The position numbers and the translations under genes are program-made. Under the pieces are notes generated by a model that did not search any database, was not told where the DNA came from, and worked only from the letters and a program-made list of their open reading frames with translations. From NCBI GenBank assembly GCA_000182565.2, contig KQ257458.1: a stretch of DNA of 64,000 nt; one strand, given 5' to 3'. Source of the DNA: Spizellomyces punctatus DAOM BR117. Lineage: Eukaryota. Positions 1 to 9,966 of this stretch are shown in pieces; within the stretch, counting starts at the first letter, position 1, and each line of letters opens with the position of its first letter.

Positions 1-156
1 CTGGCGAGCAACTTGTTCAATAGCGTCGGTGGCCGTGCACAGTATCATCTGGGTCGTGAACCAAGATGCAGATGAAGCGGACCCCACAGATCCGGTACCG
101 ACCTGGTAATTGACGTCCCAACACCCCCGCTCGGAGCGCCGGTGCGTTGGCTCTTC

Positions 157-166
157 AAAGGGGGGA
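157..166 (+). other. Polypurine tract (PPT) of plus-strand LTR retrotransposon
   Basis: AAAGGGGGGA lies immediately 5' of the TGTAACG LTR start at 167. Confidence 0.8.
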
Positions 167-766
167 TGTAACGACGAGGACGTCTTCGAGAGATCGCGAG
201 TAAGCCCAAATCGGACGCGGGAAGCACGAATCGCGTGACCAACTCCACCGATTGGGTTACCGCGACCGAAAAAACCGGTTCGGAGAATGGCAATTGGCGC
301 ATTAGATTTCAGCGTGCCTCGTACAACCTGTGGAGGCCCGAGCCAGTGCGGAAAAGGAAGAGATCGGTACCGCCACCAATAAATCAGTTGCGGTGCAGCG
401 ACACCCATTAGTTTAGTTTAGTTTAACAGTTTATCCAAGAATCTTGTATAAAAAGGATGTATTCAATAAAATAAGTCGGGGGCAGAAGCCGTAGCGACAA
501 AAAATCCCCATAACTCGCTTCTCAACTCCAATCTTAGGTTAACAGGAACCTAACAGAGCGCTTCAACGGCCTGATCACCCGTACCGAAGCCTCTAAATCC
601 TGCTCGGTTCACAACTAACCGACTCTCCTTGCCTCTCGCCCTCAAGTCGCTACCGACGCCCAAAGAAAGGATTTGGAGACTACGATTCCTAGTACGGACA
701 CCCACACAACCTGCTAGGAGACCCAAGTTGTCTTTACTGTAGTCTACCAACAAAAAATCCGTTACA
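167..766 (+). mobile_element. 3' LTR (600 bp) of a plus-strand LTR retrotransposon whose body lies upstream of the window
   Basis: Perfect terminal inverted repeat TGTAACG...CGTTACA, preceded by a PPT and not followed by a PBS. Contains TATAAAAA (~447) and AATAAA (~465). Bases ~441-766 are near-identical to the reverse complement of 2804-3131. Confidence 0.88.
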
Positions 767-2661
767 AATGCCACCAGTTGCAGGTTGGCGTAAGAATCAA
801 AGATAACAGGATCTTCGGAGCTCCACATCAAGAATTTCTCATGCTCGTCGAGCCTTATCCAGGCAAGGAGGATCAAACGAGGGGTACCGTCTTCTCGGAC
901 TTTTCGCAGGATTCGATCCTTGTCAGCTTTGGCTGCGGCAGCAATGTAGAGGTGGTGGGAACTCCACACGACTGCGTAGGGGTCATTCCCGAGGTGCCCG
1001 GCGCCTCGCTTCGGTTCTTTGGCAAAGAAGCTGAGCGCGCGGGGGTTGTTGCCCATCATCAGAGCCACTTGCGGGGTGCCCCAGATGATGGCTATGTTGT
1101 CCCAGACTTGGTCCCAGCCCTGCGTGGGCGTGCGGGGGTCCTCTTCCTTAGTCTCCGTGACCTCGGAAAGAGGTGCAGTCATCAAAATTGTTGATTCCGA
1201 GTGCTTGGGTGAATGAAAGAATCCGATGGTGTGGAATCCTTGATTAGCGGCGGCTGTCCTTTCCAGTTCCGAAGCCGAAAAAAGAGTCTCGGTGGTAGCA
1301 GACGTCAAGTCCAGCTCCACTATGTAAGACTTCTTGGACTCCTGTTTGGGTTTCCAACCTGCGGGCGTGGGTGCTCCATATGGTCCTTTCTTTCCATCTT
1401 CAGGATCTTTTCAGTTCGGGTTCTGCCAGCAGAAAACGTTCCAATGCTTTTTCTGACAGAATTTGCAGGGTGCTGGTGGTTCCTTGTTGGGGTCCGGAAC
1501 CATCTTCTGAGGACCGTTGCGACCCTTTTTGGGGTTTCTGGTTTTATGTTGAGCCGTCTGCTTAGGGCCTTTGTCAGTTCCGGTCTTTTGTGACTTCTTC
1601 TGAGCTTCAGCAGCACCGCTGTAGCAAGGGTCTCGTTTTCTGGTGTCATCAGAGCCGAAATAAAGGCGCAGGAAGTCTTTTAATTTGGTCAGGTTCGTGA
1701 CGTTACAGGATTTGACCATGATTTGGATGTCGCTGGGCAATTGTTCAACTATTAGGTCGAAATGCTGGTCAGCGGGACATTCTATGTTTGCCCGGTCACC
1801 GTATGCGAGGCGCCAGAGATGAGTTTTGTGGTCAATGAATGTGAGAAAGCTGCAAAATTCTTTGGGGTTTGCGTGGCAGCGCACATATTCGGTTTTGCGC
1901 TTGGACTCAGTTAGGGGATCTCGGAACTCTCGAAGCAGTTCTTCTTTCCACCTTTTCCAGGTCCATGAGCGAGTTTCCTGGGCTTCCAGAGTGTAAAACC
2001 AAGCATCGGCAGGGGTTTTCTCAGCTATCATGGCTGGTAGGAGCTGTACCATCCTGGCATCTGACGTTGCGCTAATGTTTTGAAGAAGTTGGACTTTGTT
2101 GAGCCATTCTTCAACGTCTTGGTTTCTTTTGCCCGTAAACTCGGGTACATCCTTTGCTTTCAAGGAATCGACCTTGGTGTCGCTGGCCCACGGGGCCGCT
2201 GGCACTTGGATTGGAGGCACCGGACCTGAAAAACTTGGTTCGGTATGCTCCCTTGGTGTGTCTGATGTTTCCCATGGGGTTGCGGACCATTCTCTTGTAG
2301 CTCGTGCTATGAGAGGTAGTTCAGGCAGCGGGCGATGCGCTAGGGCTTCTAAGGCTCGTGTGAGGTGCTCATCCGCCGCTGTCTGACGTTTGGAAAGCCT
2401 ATGAAGCTGTTCCATAAGATTTTGAGTTGCCAACTGCATTGCAGCAGTCGAGCGGGCCATGTCTTCTTTTAACGCTGCCACTTCAGAGGCCATCGTGGCC
2501 AAGTTAGGGGCTTCCGGTTCGATGGAAGTGGTCCCTGAACGCCTTGGGCATGTTGCGGGAGGGACTTCGACGTCCTCCGCAGGACCCTGACTATGAGTCT
2601 GGATCACAGGTGAGCGGCCTTGCGTTGGAGAGCGTTCGACCGGCATCATTCTCGGTTTCAT
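767..2661 (-). pseudogene. gag: gag(-pol) polyprotein: retrotransposon Gag with CCHC-type knuckle, in-frame TGA at 1411-1413, then spacer and truncated aspartic protease
   Basis: Capsid-like motifs VPEFTGKRNQDVEEWLNKV...ADAWF...WKRWKEELLREF and knuckle CKFCQKKHWNVFC. ORFs 1411-2661 and 550-1320 share one frame separated only by the TGA. VIFDSYANLQLV resembles the D-S/T-G-A protease motif. Confidence 0.8.
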
Positions 2662-2788
2662 GAAGTCTGTTTCCGAAATGAGAGAAAAGGTTTCTGAGTA
2701 GCTACCTGAGCGGATCTCGGTTTGCGCAAGAGTTTCAGTATGACCGAATAAGGTTTTCAGCTGAATTTGAGAGGGGAAGGCAGTTCAT

Positions 2789-2803
2789 CGCGCTTCTCCA
2801 CCA
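2789..2803 (-). other. Primer-binding site (probably tRNA-Ala)
   Basis: Minus strand reads TGGTGGAGAAGCGCG directly after the LTR end, complementary to a ...UCUCCACCA-3' tRNA end. Confidence 0.7.
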
Positions 2804-3376
2804 TGTAATGGATTTTTTGTTGGTAGACTATGGTAAAGACAACTTGGGTCTCCTAGCAGGTTGTGTGGGTGTCCGTACTAGGAATCGTAGTCTCCAAATC
2901 CTTTCTTTGGGCGTCGGTAGCGACTTGAGGGCGAGAGGCAAGGAGAGTCGGTTAGTTGTGAACCGAGCAGGATTTAGAGGCTTCAGTGCGGGTGATCAGG
3001 CCGTTGAAGCGCTCTGTTAGGTTCCTGTTAACCTAGGATTGGGGTTGAGAAGCTAGTTGTGGGGATTTTTTTGTCGCTATGGCTTCTGGCCACCAACTTA
3101 TTTTATTGAATTCCTCTTTTTATACAAGAATATGCTACGGTAACATCTACACTAGTTTCTGTAGCCTTCATTAGGGTGGCGGCGTCCGATCTTCCCATCT
3201 CGGACCATCGCCATGATCGATCATGGCTGCGTAATGTATCCTTCACGCTGCGCTGGTGTAGCCCAGAACCGAGCTTGATCTTAGGGGTTTCGAAGCTTAG
3301 GTTACAATTGCGGAAACCTCAATCATGGTCACCTGATGCCTTTGAGCGAACCGGTTTATCAGAGTCGTTCACTACA
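2804..3376 (-). repeat. 5' LTR (573 bp) of the minus-strand retrotransposon
   Basis: Minus strand reads TGTAGTG...CATTACA (TG..CA ends with short inverted repeat), is followed by the PBS, and is homologous to LTR 167-766 over its 3' ~325 bp. Confidence 0.85.
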
Positions 3377-4349
3377 TCATCGTGGAATGTGTTTTGAAGG
3401 CTCGATCACGACAGATGGTACCTCGGTGTCAGTTTACTTGAAACATCCTGAAGCTGACAAGTATGGAAAGCGCAGCGGCGGAGGGAAAAAGTCAGCAAAC
3501 ACAATGGAGGCAGAGGTTAAAGTGCAATATGTGGAGAAAAACTTACCTGCTTGTCGAGTAGCAGAGAATGTTGTTGTTATCGACCCAAACAAGTGTGACA
3601 TTCTCTACTGCCAAGACAGCATTGGTATGACATTTCGCTACACCTCCAACCAGCAAGCCATGGAGACAGGTAGCCGTTGACAGCAAAAGGAACGACAGCA
3701 GATGAAGAAGGGGGAAATTGACCTCATAGAATCACATATCCCTAGCCACAAAACAATGAACCTCATGGATTTTACTCGCTACCTTCTCATTCGCTGTGCT
3801 GATTCGGATCGTTGCAAGGAATTCTACTCACATCCTGCCCACACGCGGTGGAAGTGGCACTCCTTCATCAATCAGCAGCGAAGTGAATCAGACCTCATAA
3901 GTGCCATGCACAACAAATACAGTGAAAACTTTACCATTGTGATGGGTGATTGGAGCGATGCCGGTCGAACTGCCAGATTTCAGACCTCATCAAAGACAAA
4001 AGGTTGGCACACCATCTTTAAGCGGAACAGGATCAACTGCTTCCTTCTTGATGAGTACAAGACCTCATCTGTCTGCCCTCACTGTTCATCCGATGACTTC
4101 CTTGAAAAAGGCTTCAAAACACGACCTCATTCAAGACCTTGGTGACGAAGAGAAGGCAAGGTTGAAAAAGTCCATGGATTGCTGGGTTGTACCAACCCTA
4201 ACTGTTTGCAGCAAGACTGGACATCGGGAATGCGCTACTGGAACAGGGACACACTGAGCACCTGCAATATGCTGATGATCGTGCAATCAATGTTGGATGG
4301 ACATGGTAGACCAGAGGTGTTCAGCAGGAGTGTTCCAGCCGTAGCCTAG
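3377..4349 (+). pseudogene. Fz1: Fanzor1 (eukaryotic TnpB-like RNA-guided RuvC nuclease, SpuFz1-like), C-terminal half, 5' interrupted by an LTR element, two in-frame TGA stops
   Basis: One frame contains FEGSITTDGTSVSV, RuvC-I VVVIDPN, VMGDWS, RuvC-II LLDEYKTSSVCPHC, Zn-ribbon GLLGCTNPNC and RuvC-III YWNRD, ending GRPEVFSRSVPAVA-TAG. Stops at 3678-3680 and 4143-4145. Confidence 0.95.
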
Positions 4350-4363
4350 ATTGGTTAGATTAG

Positions 4364-4452
4364 CTTTTCCGAACCGGTTATCGCCGGTTCAATCCCTGGT
4401 GCGGGTGCTAGTGCCAATACCCATCGGCTCCGCACTAACAATGATGATTGTG
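4364..4452 (+). ncRNA. Fanzor omega-RNA: scaffold ~4364-4437 (transposon right end) plus ~15-nt guide from the flank (ACAATGATGATTGTG)
   Basis: Starts ~15 nt after the Fanzor stop. Hairpin GAACCGG-ttatcg-CCGGTTC (4371-4390), GGGT/ACCC stem, and loop TAGTGC (4409-4414) complementary to terminal GCACTA (4432-4437), a pseudoknot. Matches my recollection of the SpuFz1 scaffold ending ...GGCTCCGCACTA. Confidence 0.88.
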
Positions 4453-4932
4453 AACATACGATATGACTACAGATTTAAATATATTGGCAGAGGAACGTCT
4501 TAGGGTTACCTGTTTGTCCTGTCCGCCTTTGAAGAACACTGCGCTCCGTTTGTTTCTTGCATGGGTTTTTTTGAAACGTTTTTGCATTGGATAACAAAGA
4601 TGCGATACAGTAGAACATTGGGAACGATGGGTTCAGACATTTTGGCGTAAAGGACGTTTGCACAATGTAGGTTTAGGTCAAACCCCCACATATTGGGATT
4701 CGGATAAGAATGTTGGTTTGGGGAAAGAGTTTGAACACATTGGGAAGAATAAAAAAACAAGAGTAATCCTTCATCTTTACAAACACAAAAAAGCCTTTTA
4801 TTTACAAACCGGCAATCGGATACGTATTTCACAACGGTATACACCTTTTTTTCCTATATACAAGCCAGTTGACTTGTGAATTTCCATACGAGTTTCGACT
4901 TGGGTTTCGTTTGCCAAACTCTTAGTTTGGGT

Positions 4933-5127
4933 TACTTTTACTTTGCGGCTTTCTTCGCTCCACCTGGCGCGGGTGCTGCATTCTTCTGTGCCTTCTGGGA
5001 GTGCTACGGCCGGTAATTTCTTCCCTACGATTTTTTCTTTTCCGAGCTTCGACCCTTGAGGGGATGGAGCCTACCAAGGCGAGGACAACAAACAATGTGT
5101 GTAAATGCTTGAAAAGTAGCAGGTCAT
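4933..5127 (-). pseudogene. Decayed paralogue of the small secreted protein at 5941-6243
   Basis: ATGACCTGCTACTTTTCAAGCATTTAC...TTGTTTGTTGTCCTCGCCTTG...GCTCCATCCCCTCAAG aligns with the 5' end of 5941-6243 but has deletions and an early TAG. The upstream flank is also homologous. Confidence 0.7.
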
Positions 5128-5940
5128 TCCTAAAGTCCTAGTCTTGTTTTCGTTTGTTGGTCAAGTTTTTGCAGTTGAATGAATGAAAGAAAGGATGTTA
5201 TCTGCGTCGTTGTCTTTGTTTTGTCTTGGTTTGGGGTTTACGAGATACATGCTTTCCCAATACACATTTTTTTTGTTTTACATACAAGCCAGTCGAGTTT
5301 CGACATGGGCTTTTTCCCGTCGTTTGCTGAACTCTTTCAAGTGGGTTTGACCGGCGTTTATTTCTTTGCAGATAAAAGCGGTACGGCTTTATTTACAATG
5401 GTTTCAGAGGCCAGTACGGTCTTCTTTGTAGGCGTTAGGACTGTGAAGTGGTTTGATATATCTTGCCAACAAATCCCAAGTCTACCCTGCGTAGACAACG
5501 CAGAGGCTGTTAAACTGGGCTTGCGATATGCATTGTCTTTGAGCCATATCTGGAATAAACGATACATGACGAATCCCATTCGAAACTCCAACCATGATTT
5601 AAATGCATTTTTGCATAGTCTTTCTTTGAAGCATTCAGATGGAGGGAATGCATTTTAATGTGGGGAGTGTGATAAAATGCCCAGAATTCTTTGTTTATTT
5701 ACATTCACAGATACTGACCCTCCCAATACATATTTTTGTGTTTCTATATACAAGCTAGTCCATTTCAAAGAATTTACAAAAGAGCTTAGACATGACCTTT
5801 TTCATCGTTGCTATACTCTGTCTGGATGTCCCGAATTTCTTTCCCTCATTTACACTATATACACTTTACTCTTTTTGTTTTTTTACCAAGCCGAAAGAGT
5901 CCATAGAGGAATTCACAAAAGTCTGGACATGGCACATTGA

Positions 5941-6243
5941 TCATTTTTTCGGATTACCAACGCCGCCGGGTCGGGTAGGAGTAACAGGCCTGCCTGCCCC
6001 ATTCTGAGGAGGAGGGCTCGGATATTTGTTAACTTTAACGGGAACTCTCTCGCCTTTTGGTAAGTTCGTTTTGGGGAGCACGGGCGGCTTTGGAGGGCGA
6101 CCGATGGTCCCGGGAGTAACGTCAATGGCTGGCTTGGGTTTCGGCGGTGGGGCTTGCGGGGATGGAGCGGCCAGAGCTGACACGGCTAGCAAGGCGAGAA
6201 CGACGAACAAGAATGCGTAGATGTTTGACAAGTAGCGGGCCAT
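5941..6243 (-). CDS. Small secreted Pro/Lys-rich protein (100 aa)
   Basis: Clear signal peptide (AFLFVVLALLAVSALA-AP) and Pro-rich basic mature part. A GC-rich ORF within AT-rich flanks. Confidence 0.75.
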   Translation of the reverse strand: MARYLSNIYAFLFVVLALLAVSALAAPSPQAPPPKPKPAIDVTPGTIGRPPKPPVLPKTNLPKGERVPVKVNKYPSPPPQNGAGRPVTPTRPGGVGNPKK

Positions 6244-7869
6244 TTTTTGAGTAGTTGGATTTTGGTTTTCGTTTGTTGGAACTATCGAGTGTTTACTGAT
6301 GATGAATGAATGGGGGGGAGTGTTATCCTGGTCGTCTTTTTATGCACATTGTCAGGCATAGAATACTTTACTATAGTCACTATTCGGGTCGCGGCATGCC
6401 GGTACCTGTTACATAATATTCCACACCCTGTTTTTTGTTGTATTCTGTACAGTGCTATCAACACCAGTTCTCATGTTCCGATAGGCTCTCTTGCAACATG
6501 TAAATGACATGAACAAATGCTGGTTACAAATCAATCCACTCTGTTTTTTGATAGCATTTGGCATACGCATACAAAATGCTATGAAAAAGATTACAGATGA
6601 GACGTGCGCTTTTGGTTTGTGATTTAAGATGGTGCGGGTGCGCATTAGCAAGCGAGTTCTTGTCTCTGTTTTGGGGTCATTGGGAGACGGGCTCGGGGTG
6701 CAATTTGAGAACGGCTCAACTTGAACAAAGAGATCATCAGAACGAGTTTCCAAAACCTGACATTGAAACGTTCCATTAAAGCACCAGTTGAAGCAACCCG
6801 CTTGCCAAAAAACAACCAATACAAAACCAAAAAGAACGCTTTTACGCAAGCACTCATCAACCCCTCTCGCAACATTATCCATCGGCGCATTCATCCCATC
6901 AACCAACAGAAAATATCTGTAAACAAGATAAAAAAAATATTTTCATAGAGACAATAATGATAAAAAGCCCTAGTTCATGTACAAAGATTGCCTCACCGCC
7001 TCAGCCATAGAAAAACCCGACCAGGGTTTTCCAAAAGCAGGGGATGCGTAATAAACAAAAGAAAGGGTTGGGTGTTGTAAAAGCGGAAAGCAACTGGCAT
7101 GTACATGAAATCAACGTAAATAAAAAAAAGAGAAATGGAGAAAGCAATGTCAGTAGTAAAGTATTCTTGAATACAAGACTGGCTTATTGCCCCCATTTCT
7201 GTTTACATTTTACCATTCTATTTTACATTTTGGGGCTGTTATTTAAGACGCAAACTATATATCGCAAACTATGCAAATGACAAACATTATCTCATCTCGT
7301 TTGTTTGTTCATTTTCTATATTCCTGTAATATCCACATTAATAACACCCCATACTTTTGGAATATCCGTTTCCGTTTGACTTGAAAAAAGGCACTCGAAT
7401 AAGACATCACTAATGTGCAAGACATATCCTCAAAGTCCTGAACGAAAAGGTGCCATCTCTCGTCGGATGAGATGCGTGTTGGCGGATCCTCACCATTGAC
7501 ACATACGTTCCCATCTCAAAATCAAATCGTTGAAAAGTTTATAACATTCATATTAGGCATCATAAATACAAAAAAAAAAAGATAAACACCTTTTCCGCTA
7601 AACAAAAAACAAGCCCACATTTTCTTGTACATTTCTCACGATTCCTGACACTTGTTTTTCGCCCTCAACTTTTCAACACCACACCAAATCCACGACCACA
7701 ACGATAAACACAGCGGACTCGTTGACCGATTCCACACAATACGGTAGTCACTAGCGCGCAAGATAAATCAATGACCATCACCACCGTCACCAAATTGCCA
7801 AAAAAAAAAAAAAACCACCGCACACGGCCAACTCCATAGTTCTCGCAAAATCATTCGAGTCCGAAACCA

Positions 7870-9966
7870 TCACCCCCGGAAAAAAACACCATCAACAAGC
7901 TCTTCACTCGCCATCCCCGCTGGATCCTCACCCATCATTCGCCCCACCATCATGACATCCTCCATTCCTTGTCCGTATCCATAGCCGTAGCCTCCATACA
8001 CGTTATACGTATTGACATTGTACGAGGGGGGACGCGAGATGCCGTACGAGGCGTATTGGTGCTCGTAGGGGGGATAGTAGGGTTGGGAGGTGTTGGAGTG
8101 GGTGCGCGTCATGGCGGGCACCGCACCCATGCCCGGTCCCATGCCCGGGGGTCCCATTCCGGGTCCCATCGCGGCGGGTCCCATGCCGGGTACTGCCATC
8201 GGTGCTGGTGGTGCTGGTGGTGCTATGGGAGGTGCTTGGTCTTGCGAATGAGCGGAATGTGTGGGAGTCAAGGGCGTCTTTTCAGTCAACTGAAGCTCCG
8301 TCAACTGCTTCAACAAGACATCCAAGTCCACACCAGGTGGAATCGTCCCGGCTTTGGTCTGCATTTCCAAAAATTGCGCCAAAACAGTCTTGAGCATTTC
8401 GGGCGGGAGCGACGAAGGCTTGACGTTTTGCGGGGGTGTAGTTGGGGGATAGTCCATCATGAAATCGTCGTCTGAATCTCGACGGGGCCGCTTGCCGGAT
8501 TTGGGCTTTGGAAACGTCGACAAGGAGGGCGCTGATGTGCCGTAATTCGTGGTGGGTTCCTGGCTGGCGGCTCTAGAGTGGATCGCCGGGTTGTATACGG
8601 TCGTGGGCACGATATGGGATGGGCTGCGCTGCATTGGTGTAGTACTTGTTGTAAATGACGGTGCAGACGTGGAAAGGACATTGGGGTGTGCCATGGGCGA
8701 ACACGTCGTCAAGACCCCGCTTGTGTTGGTCCCCGCAATCGCGGGTTGATGTACGGTAGACATCGTAGCCATGGGACGGTGATGCGGGCGGGATGCAATG
8801 GGGGCTTTGGCAACCGGTGCACTGGATTGTTGTTGCTCTTTTCCCTTTTCCTTTTTAGGTCCCCTGTTGCGTTTGCGAATGACATCGCTCTTCATGGAGA
8901 TAGGACGCACGACGCCGTGTAGTTTGTAAAAAAGGCCACAGGCGTTGCAGAGAGGGTCGCCATTGGCATCGCGGCGCCAAAGAGGCGTCTTGTTGGTGCC
9001 GCAGTTGGAACAAGCAGATGGCGGTACATACGACGATAATGACGACGAAGCTTGTGAGGAACTGCGCCGGCTGTTGCTGGCCGATTTGATTTTCCGCACG
9101 GGTTTGACGGTGGACGTGCTGCTTGTAGAAGCGACCGAAGACGAAAACTCGACGCCTGAATCGGGCGGCGGCGTTCCCGCCATGCTTGAATGCGGATTGT
9201 CGATGAGCGAAACAGTGGGCAGTGATCCACTTGCCCAGGAGGTTATGGGGGGCGATGAAGCGACATCGCCCGGTGGGAAATAAAGCTGTTCACCCGGGCC
9301 ACCCAGAGTCCGATTGTCCCGGCTCACACTCGAGTGAGCATCGCTAATGTTTCCTGCGTGCGCGAGCAAGTCTGCGGCCTTGAGCGAGGCAGAAAGAGGA
9401 CTTGTAGAAAGGGAGGGATGGTTGGGAACGGGTTGTTTGATGAATGGATCATCCATAGTAGTAGTTGTAGTAGGATCAGTAGTAACAAATCCAAACGGAT
9501 CCCATGAATCGTCATCGAGTGTAAAGAAAGATTCAAGATACGAATGCTCCAGTTGCTTGCGCTCTCGTAAGAGTGACATGTGCATGAGCCTCCATGTCAT
9601 ATTCTCCAATCTCGCTCCATTGGGCAGAGCGTCCCGAGCGCGAGTACATAGTTTCCATACAGAGTGAGAATCCGCAGATGTTCTAGCACCCCGTATGAGC
9701 CACGAGAGTAGATTGTCCCCCTCCAGTTTGACCAACGTGTCTGTAAGCGATAGTGAGTTGAGTGTGAGTGAAAATGAGAGGAATGAGTGAAAACACTTAC
9801 TAATAGAGTAGAGATGTGTGCGTGTGTGTGGGGAAAGAACTAGAGTTGCGTGTGCGTGTATGAATAGTCCAAATGACTTGCGTGCGTGAAAAGTTGTCGT
9901 TGTCCGTAAGTGTCCGTAGATGGTCGCTTGCGGGAGGAAGATTGAAATCACTCTCTCCTTACACAC
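7870..9966 (-). CDS. areA: AreA/Nit2/Gat1-type GATA transcription factor (true start uncertain; 9742-9966 is probably intron)
   Basis: N-terminal [10 protein letters not shown] motif (DUF1752-type) and GATA finger [33 protein letters not shown] with basic tail. Confidence 0.88.

What the first reader, a model, noticed from the sequence alone, without database searches (positions are those of the whole stretch)
3377..4452. Eukaryotic RNA-guided nuclease locus: Fanzor1 RuvC gene plus omega-RNA scaffold and guide
Seen: ORFs 3336-3680 and 3702-4145 and the segment to 4349 form one frame with the TnpB/Fanzor RuvC triad (IDPN, DEYKTS, NRD) and CxxC/CxxxxC Zn ligands. About 15 nt later comes a ~75-nt structured element ending CCGCACTA, after which composition turns AT-rich. 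Known: Fanzors are transposon-encoded OMEGA nucleases whose omega-RNA overlaps the element right end and takes its guide from the flanking DNA. From memory this closely resembles S. punctatus SpuFz1 (TAM CATA), so the system class is described but this copy may not be. Inference: this is the right half of a Spu-1-like element.
Basis: partly seen in the sequence, partly recalled or inferred. Interest (0 to 1): 0.92.

Follow-up and report, generated by a model that had tools for sequence, protein, structure and literature searches.

The report
Dead Fanzor1 copy, intact guide RNA
This is a broken, half-length copy of the already well-studied Fanzor1 transposon of the soil fungus Spizellomyces punctatus: the nuclease gene is dead, but its guide-RNA part is still intact, so the locus is real but ordinary.

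Summary
Window 3379-4349 (+) is one reading frame that matches the C-terminal half of Spizellomyces punctatus Fanzor1 (SpuFz1, PDB 8gkh; E 1e-184, about 84% identity). The RuvC residues and the zinc finger are kept. Fourteen bases after the stop lies a 74-nt element (4364-4437). By eye it differs by one base from a published, validated SpuFz1 omegaRNA scaffold. It folds into the published two-stem shape. Similarity to other copies ends at 4437, so 4438-4452 is the guide.

The gene is dead. About 318 N-terminal residues are missing, with a sharp break at 3378|3379. Two in-frame TGA codons replace arginines. The copy carries many CpG-to-TpG/CpA changes. No left end or 5' half lies in the window.

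Saito et al. 2023 (PMC10432273) reported 42 such full or partial loci and 134 gene-less "ghost" loci in this fungus. Bao and Jurka 2013 described the SPu-1 element. The kind is therefore already known. This scan has noted Fanzor guide-RNA remnants on other DNA before. Whether this omegaRNA is made or used in trans is not shown.

The parts
3379..4349 (+). Fanzor1 (SpuFz1-type) pseudogene fragment, equivalent to residues about 319-638 of the 638-aa SpuFz1, including its natural stop TAG at 4347-4349
   Evidence: phmmer against PDB: 8gkh_P residues 712-1032, E 1.1e-184. tblastn of 13 S. punctatus-type Fanzor proteins: every main match begins between 3330 and 3387, and none matches N-terminal residues anywhere in the window.
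3378..3379 (.). 5' break of the Fanzor fragment, where it joins an unrelated repeated sequence (3131-3378)
   Evidence: Protein homology starts at 3381-3384. One contig of run X2 follows the window up to 3378 and then continues unlike it for 255 nt (table 7). Summed contig depth over 3131-3342 in X2 is 44-59, against 4.1 for the unique flank.
3678..3680 (+). In-frame TGA at the place of SpuFz1 R415
   Evidence: Alignment to 8gkh. Other copies read C at 3678 and G at 3680: X13 65.3 of 65.3 depth for C. The change sits in a TpG context.
4143..4145 (+). In-frame TGA at the place of SpuFz1 R571
   Evidence: Alignment to 8gkh. Other copies read C at 4143: X2 17 of 19 depth, X13 143.4 of 143.4. The change sits in a TpG context.
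3579..3590 (+). IDPN: RuvC D383 and N385 equivalents, kept. The next-but-one residue, R387, is changed to C.
   Evidence: Residue roles come from PMC10432273 passages.
4050..4085 (+). DEYKTS (E541 equivalent) followed by the first zinc-finger pair, CPHC
4188..4250 (+). Second zinc-finger pair CTNPNC (4188-4205) and NRD (4242-4250, D606 equivalent)
4350..4363 (+). [quoted passage not shown]
   Evidence: One X13 contig is like the window only from 4364 onward, with a loose end 'before' 4363.
4364..4437 (+). omegaRNA scaffold, 74 nt: 5' tail 4364-4370, stem-loop 1 4371-4390, linker 4391-4396, stem 2 with an 8-nt loop 4397-4437
   Evidence: Compared by eye with five published S. punctatus omegaRNAs: one extra C in ID20, 2 substitutions against ID19, 5 against ID14, 4 plus one indel against ID16, 3 plus one indel against ID23. 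Fold.
4408..4437 (+). Right-end terminal inverted repeat (last 30 nt, ending ...CCGCACTA); the element ends at 4437
   Evidence: The 30-nt IR length and the annotated 'end' feature of locus ID16 come from PMC10432273. Loose ends 'behind' 4437 appear in 2 X13 contigs. Depth falls to the single-copy level in the next bin.
4438..4452 (+). Guide segment (14-15 nt), taken from the flanking DNA and private to this locus
   Evidence: Published omegaRNAs extend 14-15 nt past the scaffold. All five published guides and this one differ from each other. There is no other exact copy in the window.

Best explanation
This is a decayed, 5'-truncated copy of the SPu-1 / Spu-1 transposon of Spizellomyces punctatus, or of a very close relative. 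SPu-1 is the prototype Fanzor1 element.

What is left is the C-terminal half of the Fanzor1 nuclease gene (RuvC and zinc-finger/NUC parts), the 14-nt spacer, the 74-nt omegaRNA scaffold that runs to the right terminal inverted repeat, and the flanking 14-15 nt that would be transcribed as the guide.

The nuclease cannot be made from this copy. The REC/WED half is gone and two arginine codons have become TGA. Most of the changes private to this copy are C-to-T or G-to-A, mainly at CpG. That is what deamination of methylated cytosine in a silenced transposon would give (inferred).

The omegaRNA part is sequence-intact. Every base of it occurs in at least one published omegaRNA that was pulled down bound to SpuFz1. 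If it is transcribed, intact SpuFz1 paralogues could load it in trans and aim it at CATA followed by the guide sequence, that is, at the empty insertion site. The occupied site would be protected because ACTA, not CATA, precedes the guide match.

Shown here: identity, anatomy, decay and the right boundary. Inferred: the methylation cause, any transcription, and any use in trans.
For: - Protein identity: E 1.1e-184 to SpuFz1 (8gkh) over residues equivalent to 318-638. Identity is 72-85% to S. punctatus SPPG_ Fanzor proteins. With a profile, the only three PDB matches are SpuFz1, Parasitella Fz1 and Guillardia Fz1.
- Catalytic D383/N385/E541/D606 equivalents and the CCCC finger are present.
- Scaffold: near-identity by eye to five published omegaRNAs, all ending CCGCACTA and then diverging. 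The fold has two stems and an 8-nt loop, as described for the canonical omegaRNA.
- Right boundary: summed contig depth in X2 goes 178, then 76, then 4.1. In X13 it goes 25290, then 926, then 0 across 4350-4508. Two X13 contigs have loose ends at 4437.
- Truncation: no N-terminal match and no left-end repeat anywhere in the window. An X2 contig diverges at 3378.
- Decay: of the 40 best-supported differences listed (169 more not shown), 17 are window T against C and 14 are window A against G. Nine are other kinds, and none is window C/G against T/A. 21 of those 31 sit in a TpG/CpA context. CpG observed/expected is 0.55 in the fragment against 0.92 for the window.
- Literature: 42 full or partial Fz loci (19 full) and 134 ghost loci, a 75-nt scaffold plus a 14-15-nt guide, TAM CATA (PMC10432273). 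SPu-1 is about 2.1 kb with 33-bp TIRs and putative TA duplications (PMC3627910). In Spizellomyces 5mC is confined to transposons (PMC12695648).
Against: - The local Pfam scan gave no family for the fragment or for two full-length SpuFz1 paralogues. Rfam has no match.
- Over all variable places the run tallies are nearly symmetric: X2 has T>C 35 and A>G 26 against C>T 26 and G>A 29 (table 1). The transition bias holds only for the listed, best-supported differences.
- The scaffold comparison with published omegaRNAs was made by eye, not by a tool.
- Two searches of the paper's supplements for strings private to this locus found nothing. The files hold DNA in 10-letter blocks and cut long cells, so I could not show that this very locus is among the 42 listed.
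- The organism is inferred from paralogue identity, not named by any tool.
- Transcription: the only hint is one 229-nt contig (4321-4538, no differences) in a run whose RNA label is a guess.
Confidence: 0.93

Rival explanations
1. The locus is a wholly inert relic. The dead gene and the omegaRNA region are both silent (for instance methylated and never transcribed), and the scaffold looks intact only because the copy is young.
For: The copy shows methylation-type decay. 5mC is reported to be confined to transposons in Spizellomyces. No run with a sure RNA label covered the locus, and small RNA was reported for only four Fz loci in the paper.
Against: The 966-nt coding part carries dozens of private changes. 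The 74-nt scaffold carries no base that is absent from all five published omegaRNAs seen bound to SpuFz1, and its CpG observed/expected is 1.15. One exact 229-nt contig spans 4321-4538 in a run guessed to be RNA. With only 74 nt, intactness by chance is quite possible, so this rival is not excluded.
Confidence: 0.45
2. The locus is an active, autonomous Fanzor1 gene. The stops are bypassed by an intron, by read-through or by sequencing error, and the N-terminal half lies upstream.
For: The catalytic triad and the zinc finger are kept. The three pieces stay in one frame.
Against: No N-terminal homology exists in the 3.4 kb upstream or anywhere else in the window. SpuFz1 is a single ORF without introns. 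Both stops sit at arginine codons of the paralogues, so they are point changes and not intron edges. R387, reported to contact the omegaRNA, is changed to C.
Confidence: 0.02
3. It is a 'ghost' Spu-1 element, the gene-less omegaRNA-only family, rather than a canonical Fz locus.
For: Like the ghost loci, it offers an omegaRNA with no working nuclease in cis.
Against: Ghost loci lack the Fz ORF and have about 550 nt between their repeats. Their stem 2 has a 3-nt bulge instead of the 8-nt hairpin loop. This locus keeps 966 nt of Fz coding sequence and has the 8-nt loop. Its scaffold matches the canonical omegaRNAs of Fz loci.
Confidence: 0.03

Closest known systems
Canonical Spu-1 / SPu-1 Fanzor1 loci of Spizellomyces punctatus (SpuFz1; Bao and Jurka 2013, PMC3627910; Saito et al. 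2023, PMC10432273; PDB 8gkh)
   Same: Same protein family at about 84% identity over the retained half. Same catalytic and zinc residues. Same spacer, 74/75-nt omegaRNA scaffold and right end ending in CCGCACTA. Same 14-15-nt guide drawn from the flank.
   Different: About 318 N-terminal residues and the left end are missing. There are two nonsense codons (R415 and R571 equivalents) and an R387C change. Many private CpG transitions are present. The guide is private to this locus.
SpuFz1 locus 'ID20' of Saito et al. (Supplementary Table)
   Same: It is the nearest published relative seen. Its scaffold is identical apart from one extra C, including the rare A at scaffold position 17, where 17 of 17 X2 contigs read G. 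In the visible part of its protein I counted 5 differences in about 95 residues by eye.
   Different: ID20 is a full-length gene (628 aa) with a different guide. The paper lists a TAM of CATA for it. The window copy is truncated and stop-interrupted.
Ghost Spu-1 loci (134 in S. punctatus; Saito et al. 2023)
   Same: An omegaRNA module without a working nuclease beside it, which could serve only in trans. Ghost omegaRNAs supported editing with SpuFz1 in human cells.
   Different: Ghosts have no Fz coding sequence. Their repeats differ at seven positions and their stem 2 is bulged. This locus is a decayed canonical copy.
TnpB / omegaRNA of IS200/IS605 (for example ISDra2)
   Same: An RNA-guided RuvC nuclease whose guide RNA is encoded at the transposon's right end and reads into the flank. 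The TAM lies at the left junction, so the guide matches the empty site.
   Different: According to Saito et al., the SpuFz1 omegaRNA lacks the pseudoknot and does not overlap the ORF. The element has terminal inverted repeats and putative TA duplications rather than IS200/IS605 ends. No direct sequence match to TnpB was obtained here.

Membership tests
Fanzor1 (SpuFz1 type) | Significant sequence homology to experimentally characterised Fanzor1 proteins | tested here: met
   8gkh SpuFz1 at E 1.1e-184 and 9cf0 Parasitella Fz1 at E 4e-30. A profile of 20 sequences matches only SpuFz1, PpFz1 and GtFz1 in the PDB.
Fanzor1 (SpuFz1 type) | RuvC metal-binding residues (D383, N385, E541, D606 of SpuFz1) | tested here: met
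   IDPN, DEYKTS and NRD align to those residues. Residue roles come from PMC10432273.
Fanzor1 (SpuFz1 type) | CCCC zinc finger in the NUC domain | tested here: met
   CPHC at 4074-4085 and CTNPNC at 4188-4205. C548, C551, C586 and C591 are invariant or nearly so in alignment A1.
Fanzor1 (SpuFz1 type) | Complete open reading frame with REC and WED domains, that is, a nuclease that can be made | tested here: not met
   Only residues about 319-638 are present. There are two in-frame TGA codons. No N-terminal match exists in the window.
Fanzor1 (SpuFz1 type) | Match to a curated TnpB/Fanzor HMM (Pfam OrfB_Zn_ribbon or similar) | tested here: not met
   No Pfam family at E up to 1 for the fragment or its three pieces, apart from a weak unrelated hit. 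Two full-length SpuFz1 paralogues also gave none. The protein database lists PF26935.1 for all 23 relatives, but that model did not answer in the local copy.
Spu-1 / SPu-1 transposon | [quoted passage not shown] | tested here: met
   74 nt at 4364-4437. It differs from the five published S. punctatus omegaRNAs by 0 to 5 substitutions and at most one single-base indel, compared by eye. The fold has two stems and an 8-nt loop, z = -4.66.
Spu-1 / SPu-1 transposon | Conservation among copies ends sharply at the right terminal repeat | tested here: met
   All five published omegaRNAs and the window diverge right after CCGCACTA. Contig depth drops to the single-copy level after the 4403-4455 bin, and two X13 contigs have loose ends at 4437.
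Spu-1 / SPu-1 transposon | Left terminal inverted repeat preceded by CA, and TA target-site duplication | tested here: not met
   No inverted copy of the right end exists anywhere in the 64-kb window. The right end does finish in TA. The left junction may lie outside the window or may be lost.
Spu-1 / SPu-1 transposon | omegaRNA is transcribed and bound by SpuFz1 | tested here: inconclusive
   One exact 229-nt contig spans 4321-4538 in run X11, whose RNA label is a guess. Contigs cannot show RNA ends. Binding is not testable here.
Ghost Spu-1 elements | No Fz ORF; about 550 nt between variant repeats; stem 2 with a 3-nt bulge | tested here: not met
   966 nt of Fz coding sequence are retained. 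Stem 2 has the canonical 8-nt hairpin loop. Ghost features are taken from PMC10432273.

The most novel reading that the evidence does not exclude
Although its nuclease gene is dead, this locus may still be a working guide-RNA gene. Its omegaRNA, with a guide found nowhere else in the window, would be transcribed and loaded in trans by intact SpuFz1 paralogues. Decayed canonical copies, and not only the dedicated 'ghost' family, would then go on directing cleavage of their own empty sites, and the right end would be held intact while the gene beside it rots.
Probability: 0.25. Interest if true: 0.3.

Novelty: already known. Interest (0 to 1): 0.1.

Why it matters
It matters little as a discovery. 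The element family (2013), its RNA-guided nuclease activity, omegaRNA, TAM, structure and genome-wide census including partial copies (2023) are all in print, and this locus fits them point for point.

Its modest value is as a clean worked example of two things. First, a Fanzor1 copy decays with a CpG-transition signature that fits transposon methylation. Second, the guide-RNA module outlasts the nuclease gene. That bears on whether nuclease-less loci serve as guide donors in trans.

Tried and rejected
- tRNA-derived element: the GGTTCAATCC stretch in the scaffold looks like a tRNA T-arm, but ARAGORN found no tRNA in 1-8000 and Rfam gave no match at E up to 1.
- Pfam: no family for the fragment or for the full-length paralogues.
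- Whole-genome search: no genome is held for this window.
- Other copies in the window: none. The only non-self hit of 3131-4700 was an 18-nt palindrome.
- Supplement searches for this locus's private junction string and for a private peptide found 0 files each. This is uninformative because of the file layout.
- Viral contigs: 3 loci, at only 23-26% identity, of no use for the scaffold.
- Metagenome contigs: 8 loci were found. Three distinct ones have DNA downstream of the gene, because L004 and L005 are identical there.
  - blastn-short with the scaffold found only 11-nt chance matches.
  - Folded alone, L008 shows the same layout: tail, 7-bp stem 1, linker, long stem 2 ending CGCACTA.
  - MAFFT aligned only L008 sensibly and misplaced L004 and L006, so no covariance model or pair count was attempted.
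- Trans targets of the guide in the window: none exact. There are three off-locus sites with 2 mismatches, plus the reverse strand of the guide's own site, which also counts 2 mismatches because the guide is nearly palindromic.
- Runs X11 and X12 cover only small parts of the stretch. Parts without cover say nothing.
- Earlier notes of this scan: none on this genome.

Full report
**What is there**

Reading 3177-4352 in one frame gives a continuous protein-like translation from about 3381 to 4346. It is broken by TGA at 3678-3680 and at 4143-4145 and ends at TAG 4347-4349.
- IDPN at 3579-3590
- DEYKTS at 4050-4067
- CPHC at 4074-4085
- CTNPNC at 4188-4205
- NRD at 4242-4250

Fourteen bases after the stop, a 74-nt stretch (4364-4437) ends in CCGCACTA. 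G+C then falls from 0.58 to about 0.39-0.40.

**Identity of the protein frame**

I read the two TGA codons as X and searched the PDB sequences. The frame matches SpuFz1 (8gkh and six further entries) at E 1.1e-184. The match covers chain residues 712-1032 of the MBP fusion, which is SpuFz1 318-638. The next hit is Parasitella parasitica Fanzor1 at E 4e-30.

In the large protein collection, 23 longer relatives were found.
- The top thirteen hits run from 58 to 84% identity. Ten of them are named S. punctatus proteins (SPPG_ or hypothetical) at 73-84%; the other three carry no name.
- The rest are at 42-48%. Two are named Gaertneriomyces and Phlyctochytrium, and the others come from unnamed environmental sources.

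A profile of 20 of these sequences matches only three PDB sequences, all Fanzor1: SpuFz1, PpFz1 and GtFz1.

The local Pfam copy gave no family for the fragment. It gave none for two full-length paralogues either.

Saito et al. name D383, N385, E541 and D606 as the metal-binding residues and describe a CCCC finger (passages). All of these are kept in the window's frame.

**The gene is dead**

tblastn of 13 S. punctatus-type Fanzor proteins against the whole window placed every main match with its start between 3330 and 3387. These starts correspond to protein residues 288-320. Nothing else in the window matched better than E 0.06, so no N-terminal half is present.

By eye against the ID16 DNA record, nucleotide similarity starts at about 3379. 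Independently, one contig of run X2 follows the window up to 3378 and then continues with 255 unlike bases. The stretch 3131-3342 has a summed contig depth of 44-59 in that run, against 4.1 for the unique flank. It therefore belongs to another repeat family. The break is at 3378|3379.

The two TGA codons stand where SpuFz1 has R415 and R571. R387, which the paper reports as hydrogen-bonded to omegaRNA C7, is a cysteine here.

Other copies in two DNA-type runs read C at both stop positions. One search lists 40 best-supported differences between the window and the laid contigs, with 169 more not shown.
- 17 are window T against C.
- 14 are window A against G.
- 9 are other kinds.
- None is window C/G against T/A.

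Of those 31 transitions, 21 lie in a TpG or CpA context. CpG observed/expected is 0.55 in the fragment, 0.92 in the whole window and 1.15 in the scaffold.

Against this, the whole-run tallies over all variable places are nearly symmetric: in X2, T>C 35 and A>G 26 against C>T 26 and G>A 29. The bias therefore concerns the changes private to this copy.

A 2025 paper states that in Spizellomyces 5mC is confined to transposons (PMC12695648, passages). I infer, but did not show, that deamination of methylated CpG killed this copy.

**The omegaRNA**

Saito et al. (section 'Identification of omegaRNA from Fz loci', read whole) describe a 75-nt conserved scaffold that spans the right inverted repeat, plus a 14-15-nt variable extension.

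Their supplementary table (file 4, part 1 of 2) lists five S. punctatus omegaRNAs. I compared the window's 4364-4437 with them by eye:

| Published omegaRNA | Difference from window 4364-4437 |
|---|---|
| ID20 | one extra C |
| ID19 | 2 substitutions |
| ID14 | 5 substitutions |
| ID16 (the 638-aa SPPG_07727 locus, which is identical to the solved SpuFz1 in the aligned half by eye) | 4 substitutions and one indel |
| ID23 | 3 substitutions and one indel |

All five end in CCGCACTA. After that, all six sequences are unrelated. The table gives TAM CATA for ID14, ID16 and ID20.

The rare A at 4380 (scaffold position 17) is G in 17 of 17 X2 contigs, but it is shared with ID20.

The RNA folds into a 7-nt tail, an 8-bp stem-loop 1, a 6-nt linker and a long stem 2 with an 8-nt loop. 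The energy is -34.9 kcal/mol with the guide, z = -4.66, and 0 of 200 shuffles fold as well. This fits the paper's 'two stems and a linker' and the 8-nt hairpin loop of the canonical form, as opposed to the ghost form.

The right boundary also shows in the laid contigs. Summed depth in X2 is 178 (4350-4402), 76 (4403-4455) and 4.1 afterwards. In X13 it is 25290, 926 and 0. Two X13 contigs have loose ends at 4437, and one begins its likeness at 4364. These depths are sums over contigs and are not copy numbers.

The guide is therefore 4438-4451 or 4438-4452. It is nearly palindromic and can form a 5-bp hairpin of its own. This is probably chance.

**How it would work**

The annotated ID16 record shows CA, then the left repeat starting TAGTGCGG. 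Its right repeat ends CCGCACTA and is followed by the guide. Bao and Jurka report putative TA duplications for SPu-1.

If TA is the duplicated target, the empty site reads CA-TA-guide, that is, the TAM CATA followed by the target. The omegaRNA of each copy would then aim the nuclease at its own empty site, as in the TnpB model. This is my inference.

At the occupied site the guide match is preceded by ACTA. The paper reports that changing any TAM base abolishes cleavage, so the copy would not be cut.

Here the nuclease would have to come from another copy. The paper shows that gene-less ghost omegaRNAs work with SpuFz1 in human cells, so use in trans is plausible.

Expression at this locus is open. 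The only hint is one exact 229-nt contig over 4321-4538 in run X11, whose RNA label is a guess.

**Surroundings**

Upstream, 442-3129 is a separate element. It has 325-nt inverted terminal repeats (442-766 and 2804-3129, 95% alike) and an ORF of 416 aa on the minus strand. That ORF has no Pfam hit. Its nearest language-model clusters are retrotransposon Gag plus zinc knuckle, at score 0.93, which is a lead only.

Saito et al. mention Fz loci with Gypsy/Ty3 elements inserted beside or inside the gene. Whether an insertion or a deletion removed the 5' half here cannot be told from this window. No left end is present, and no whole genome is held.

**Relatives elsewhere**

A metagenome scan returned 8 loci at 40-71% identity. 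One of them, L008, has downstream DNA that folds into the same tail, stem 1, linker and stem 2 layout and ends in CGCACTA. Several of its stem-1 pairs are changed on both sides relative to the window. Two other loci could not be aligned reliably, so I built no covariance model.

**Comparison with what is known, and verdict**

The element is the prototype Fanzor element (SPu-1, 2013). Its nuclease, omegaRNA, TAM and structure, and a census of 42 full or partial and 134 ghost loci, were published in 2023.

What I saw of each paper:
- PMC10432273: passages, one whole section and parts of two supplements.
- PMC3627910: passages.
- PMC11423790 (Fanzor structures, 2024): only the search listing and the start of the abstract.

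I could not verify that this very locus is among the 42. Nothing about it departs from that description. This scan has also noted Fanzor guide-RNA remnants on other DNA, with 31 notes in at least 25 genomes. Those notes did not change my reading.

The finding is real and correctly interpreted. It is already known and it concerns a dead copy, so interest is low.

Noticed in passing
window 442-3129: A 2.7-kb element has 325-nt inverted terminal repeats (442-766 and 2804-3129, 95% alike). It carries a 416-aa minus-strand ORF (1411-2661) with a zinc-knuckle-like CKFCQKKHWNVFC near its end. Pfam gives nothing. Language-model neighbours are retrotransposon Gag/zf-CCHC clusters (score 0.93, a lead only). 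No RT, integrase or recombinase ORF lies between the repeats, so it may be an internally deleted retroelement of the inverted-repeat kind.
   Followed up: partly
window 3131-3378: This stretch lies between the inverted-repeat element and the Fanzor fragment and is itself repeated in the genome: summed contig depth is 44-59 in run X2 against 4.1 for unique DNA. One contig leaves the window exactly at 3378. What family it belongs to is unknown. Weak inverted similarity to 272-292 and about 361-400 suggests a longer, diverged outer repeat.
   Followed up: partly
window 3381-4346: CpG observed/expected is 0.55 and TpG+CpA is 1.44 in the Fanzor fragment, against 0.92 and 1.14 for the window. The neighbouring inverted-repeat element has a CpG ratio of 0.79. 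Decay of the methylation type therefore seems uneven among the adjacent repeats.
   Followed up: partly
window 4846-5765: Three copies of a 30-57-nt motif (of the type ...TATATACAAGCCAGT...) are spaced 424 and 466 nt apart in the AT-rich DNA just beyond the element. Tandem Repeats Finder reports no array there. Meaning unknown.
   Followed up: no
window 7870-9966 (-): A 698-aa ORF carries a GATA zinc finger (E 1e-17) and an AreA-type GATA-like domain (E 3e-13). It is probably a nitrogen-regulator-type transcription factor, an ordinary host gene 3.4 kb from the element.
   Followed up: partly
window 4438-4451: The guide segment is nearly palindromic (its reverse strand matches it with 2 mismatches). 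It is predicted to form its own 5-bp hairpin, which might hinder target pairing if the RNA is made.
   Followed up: no
L008:1948-2040: An environmental Fanzor1 relative (52% identity over the C-terminal 150 residues) has, overlapping its stop codon, an RNA-like region with the same two-stem layout ending CGCACTA. Its stem 2 is much longer and AT-rich.
   Followed up: partly
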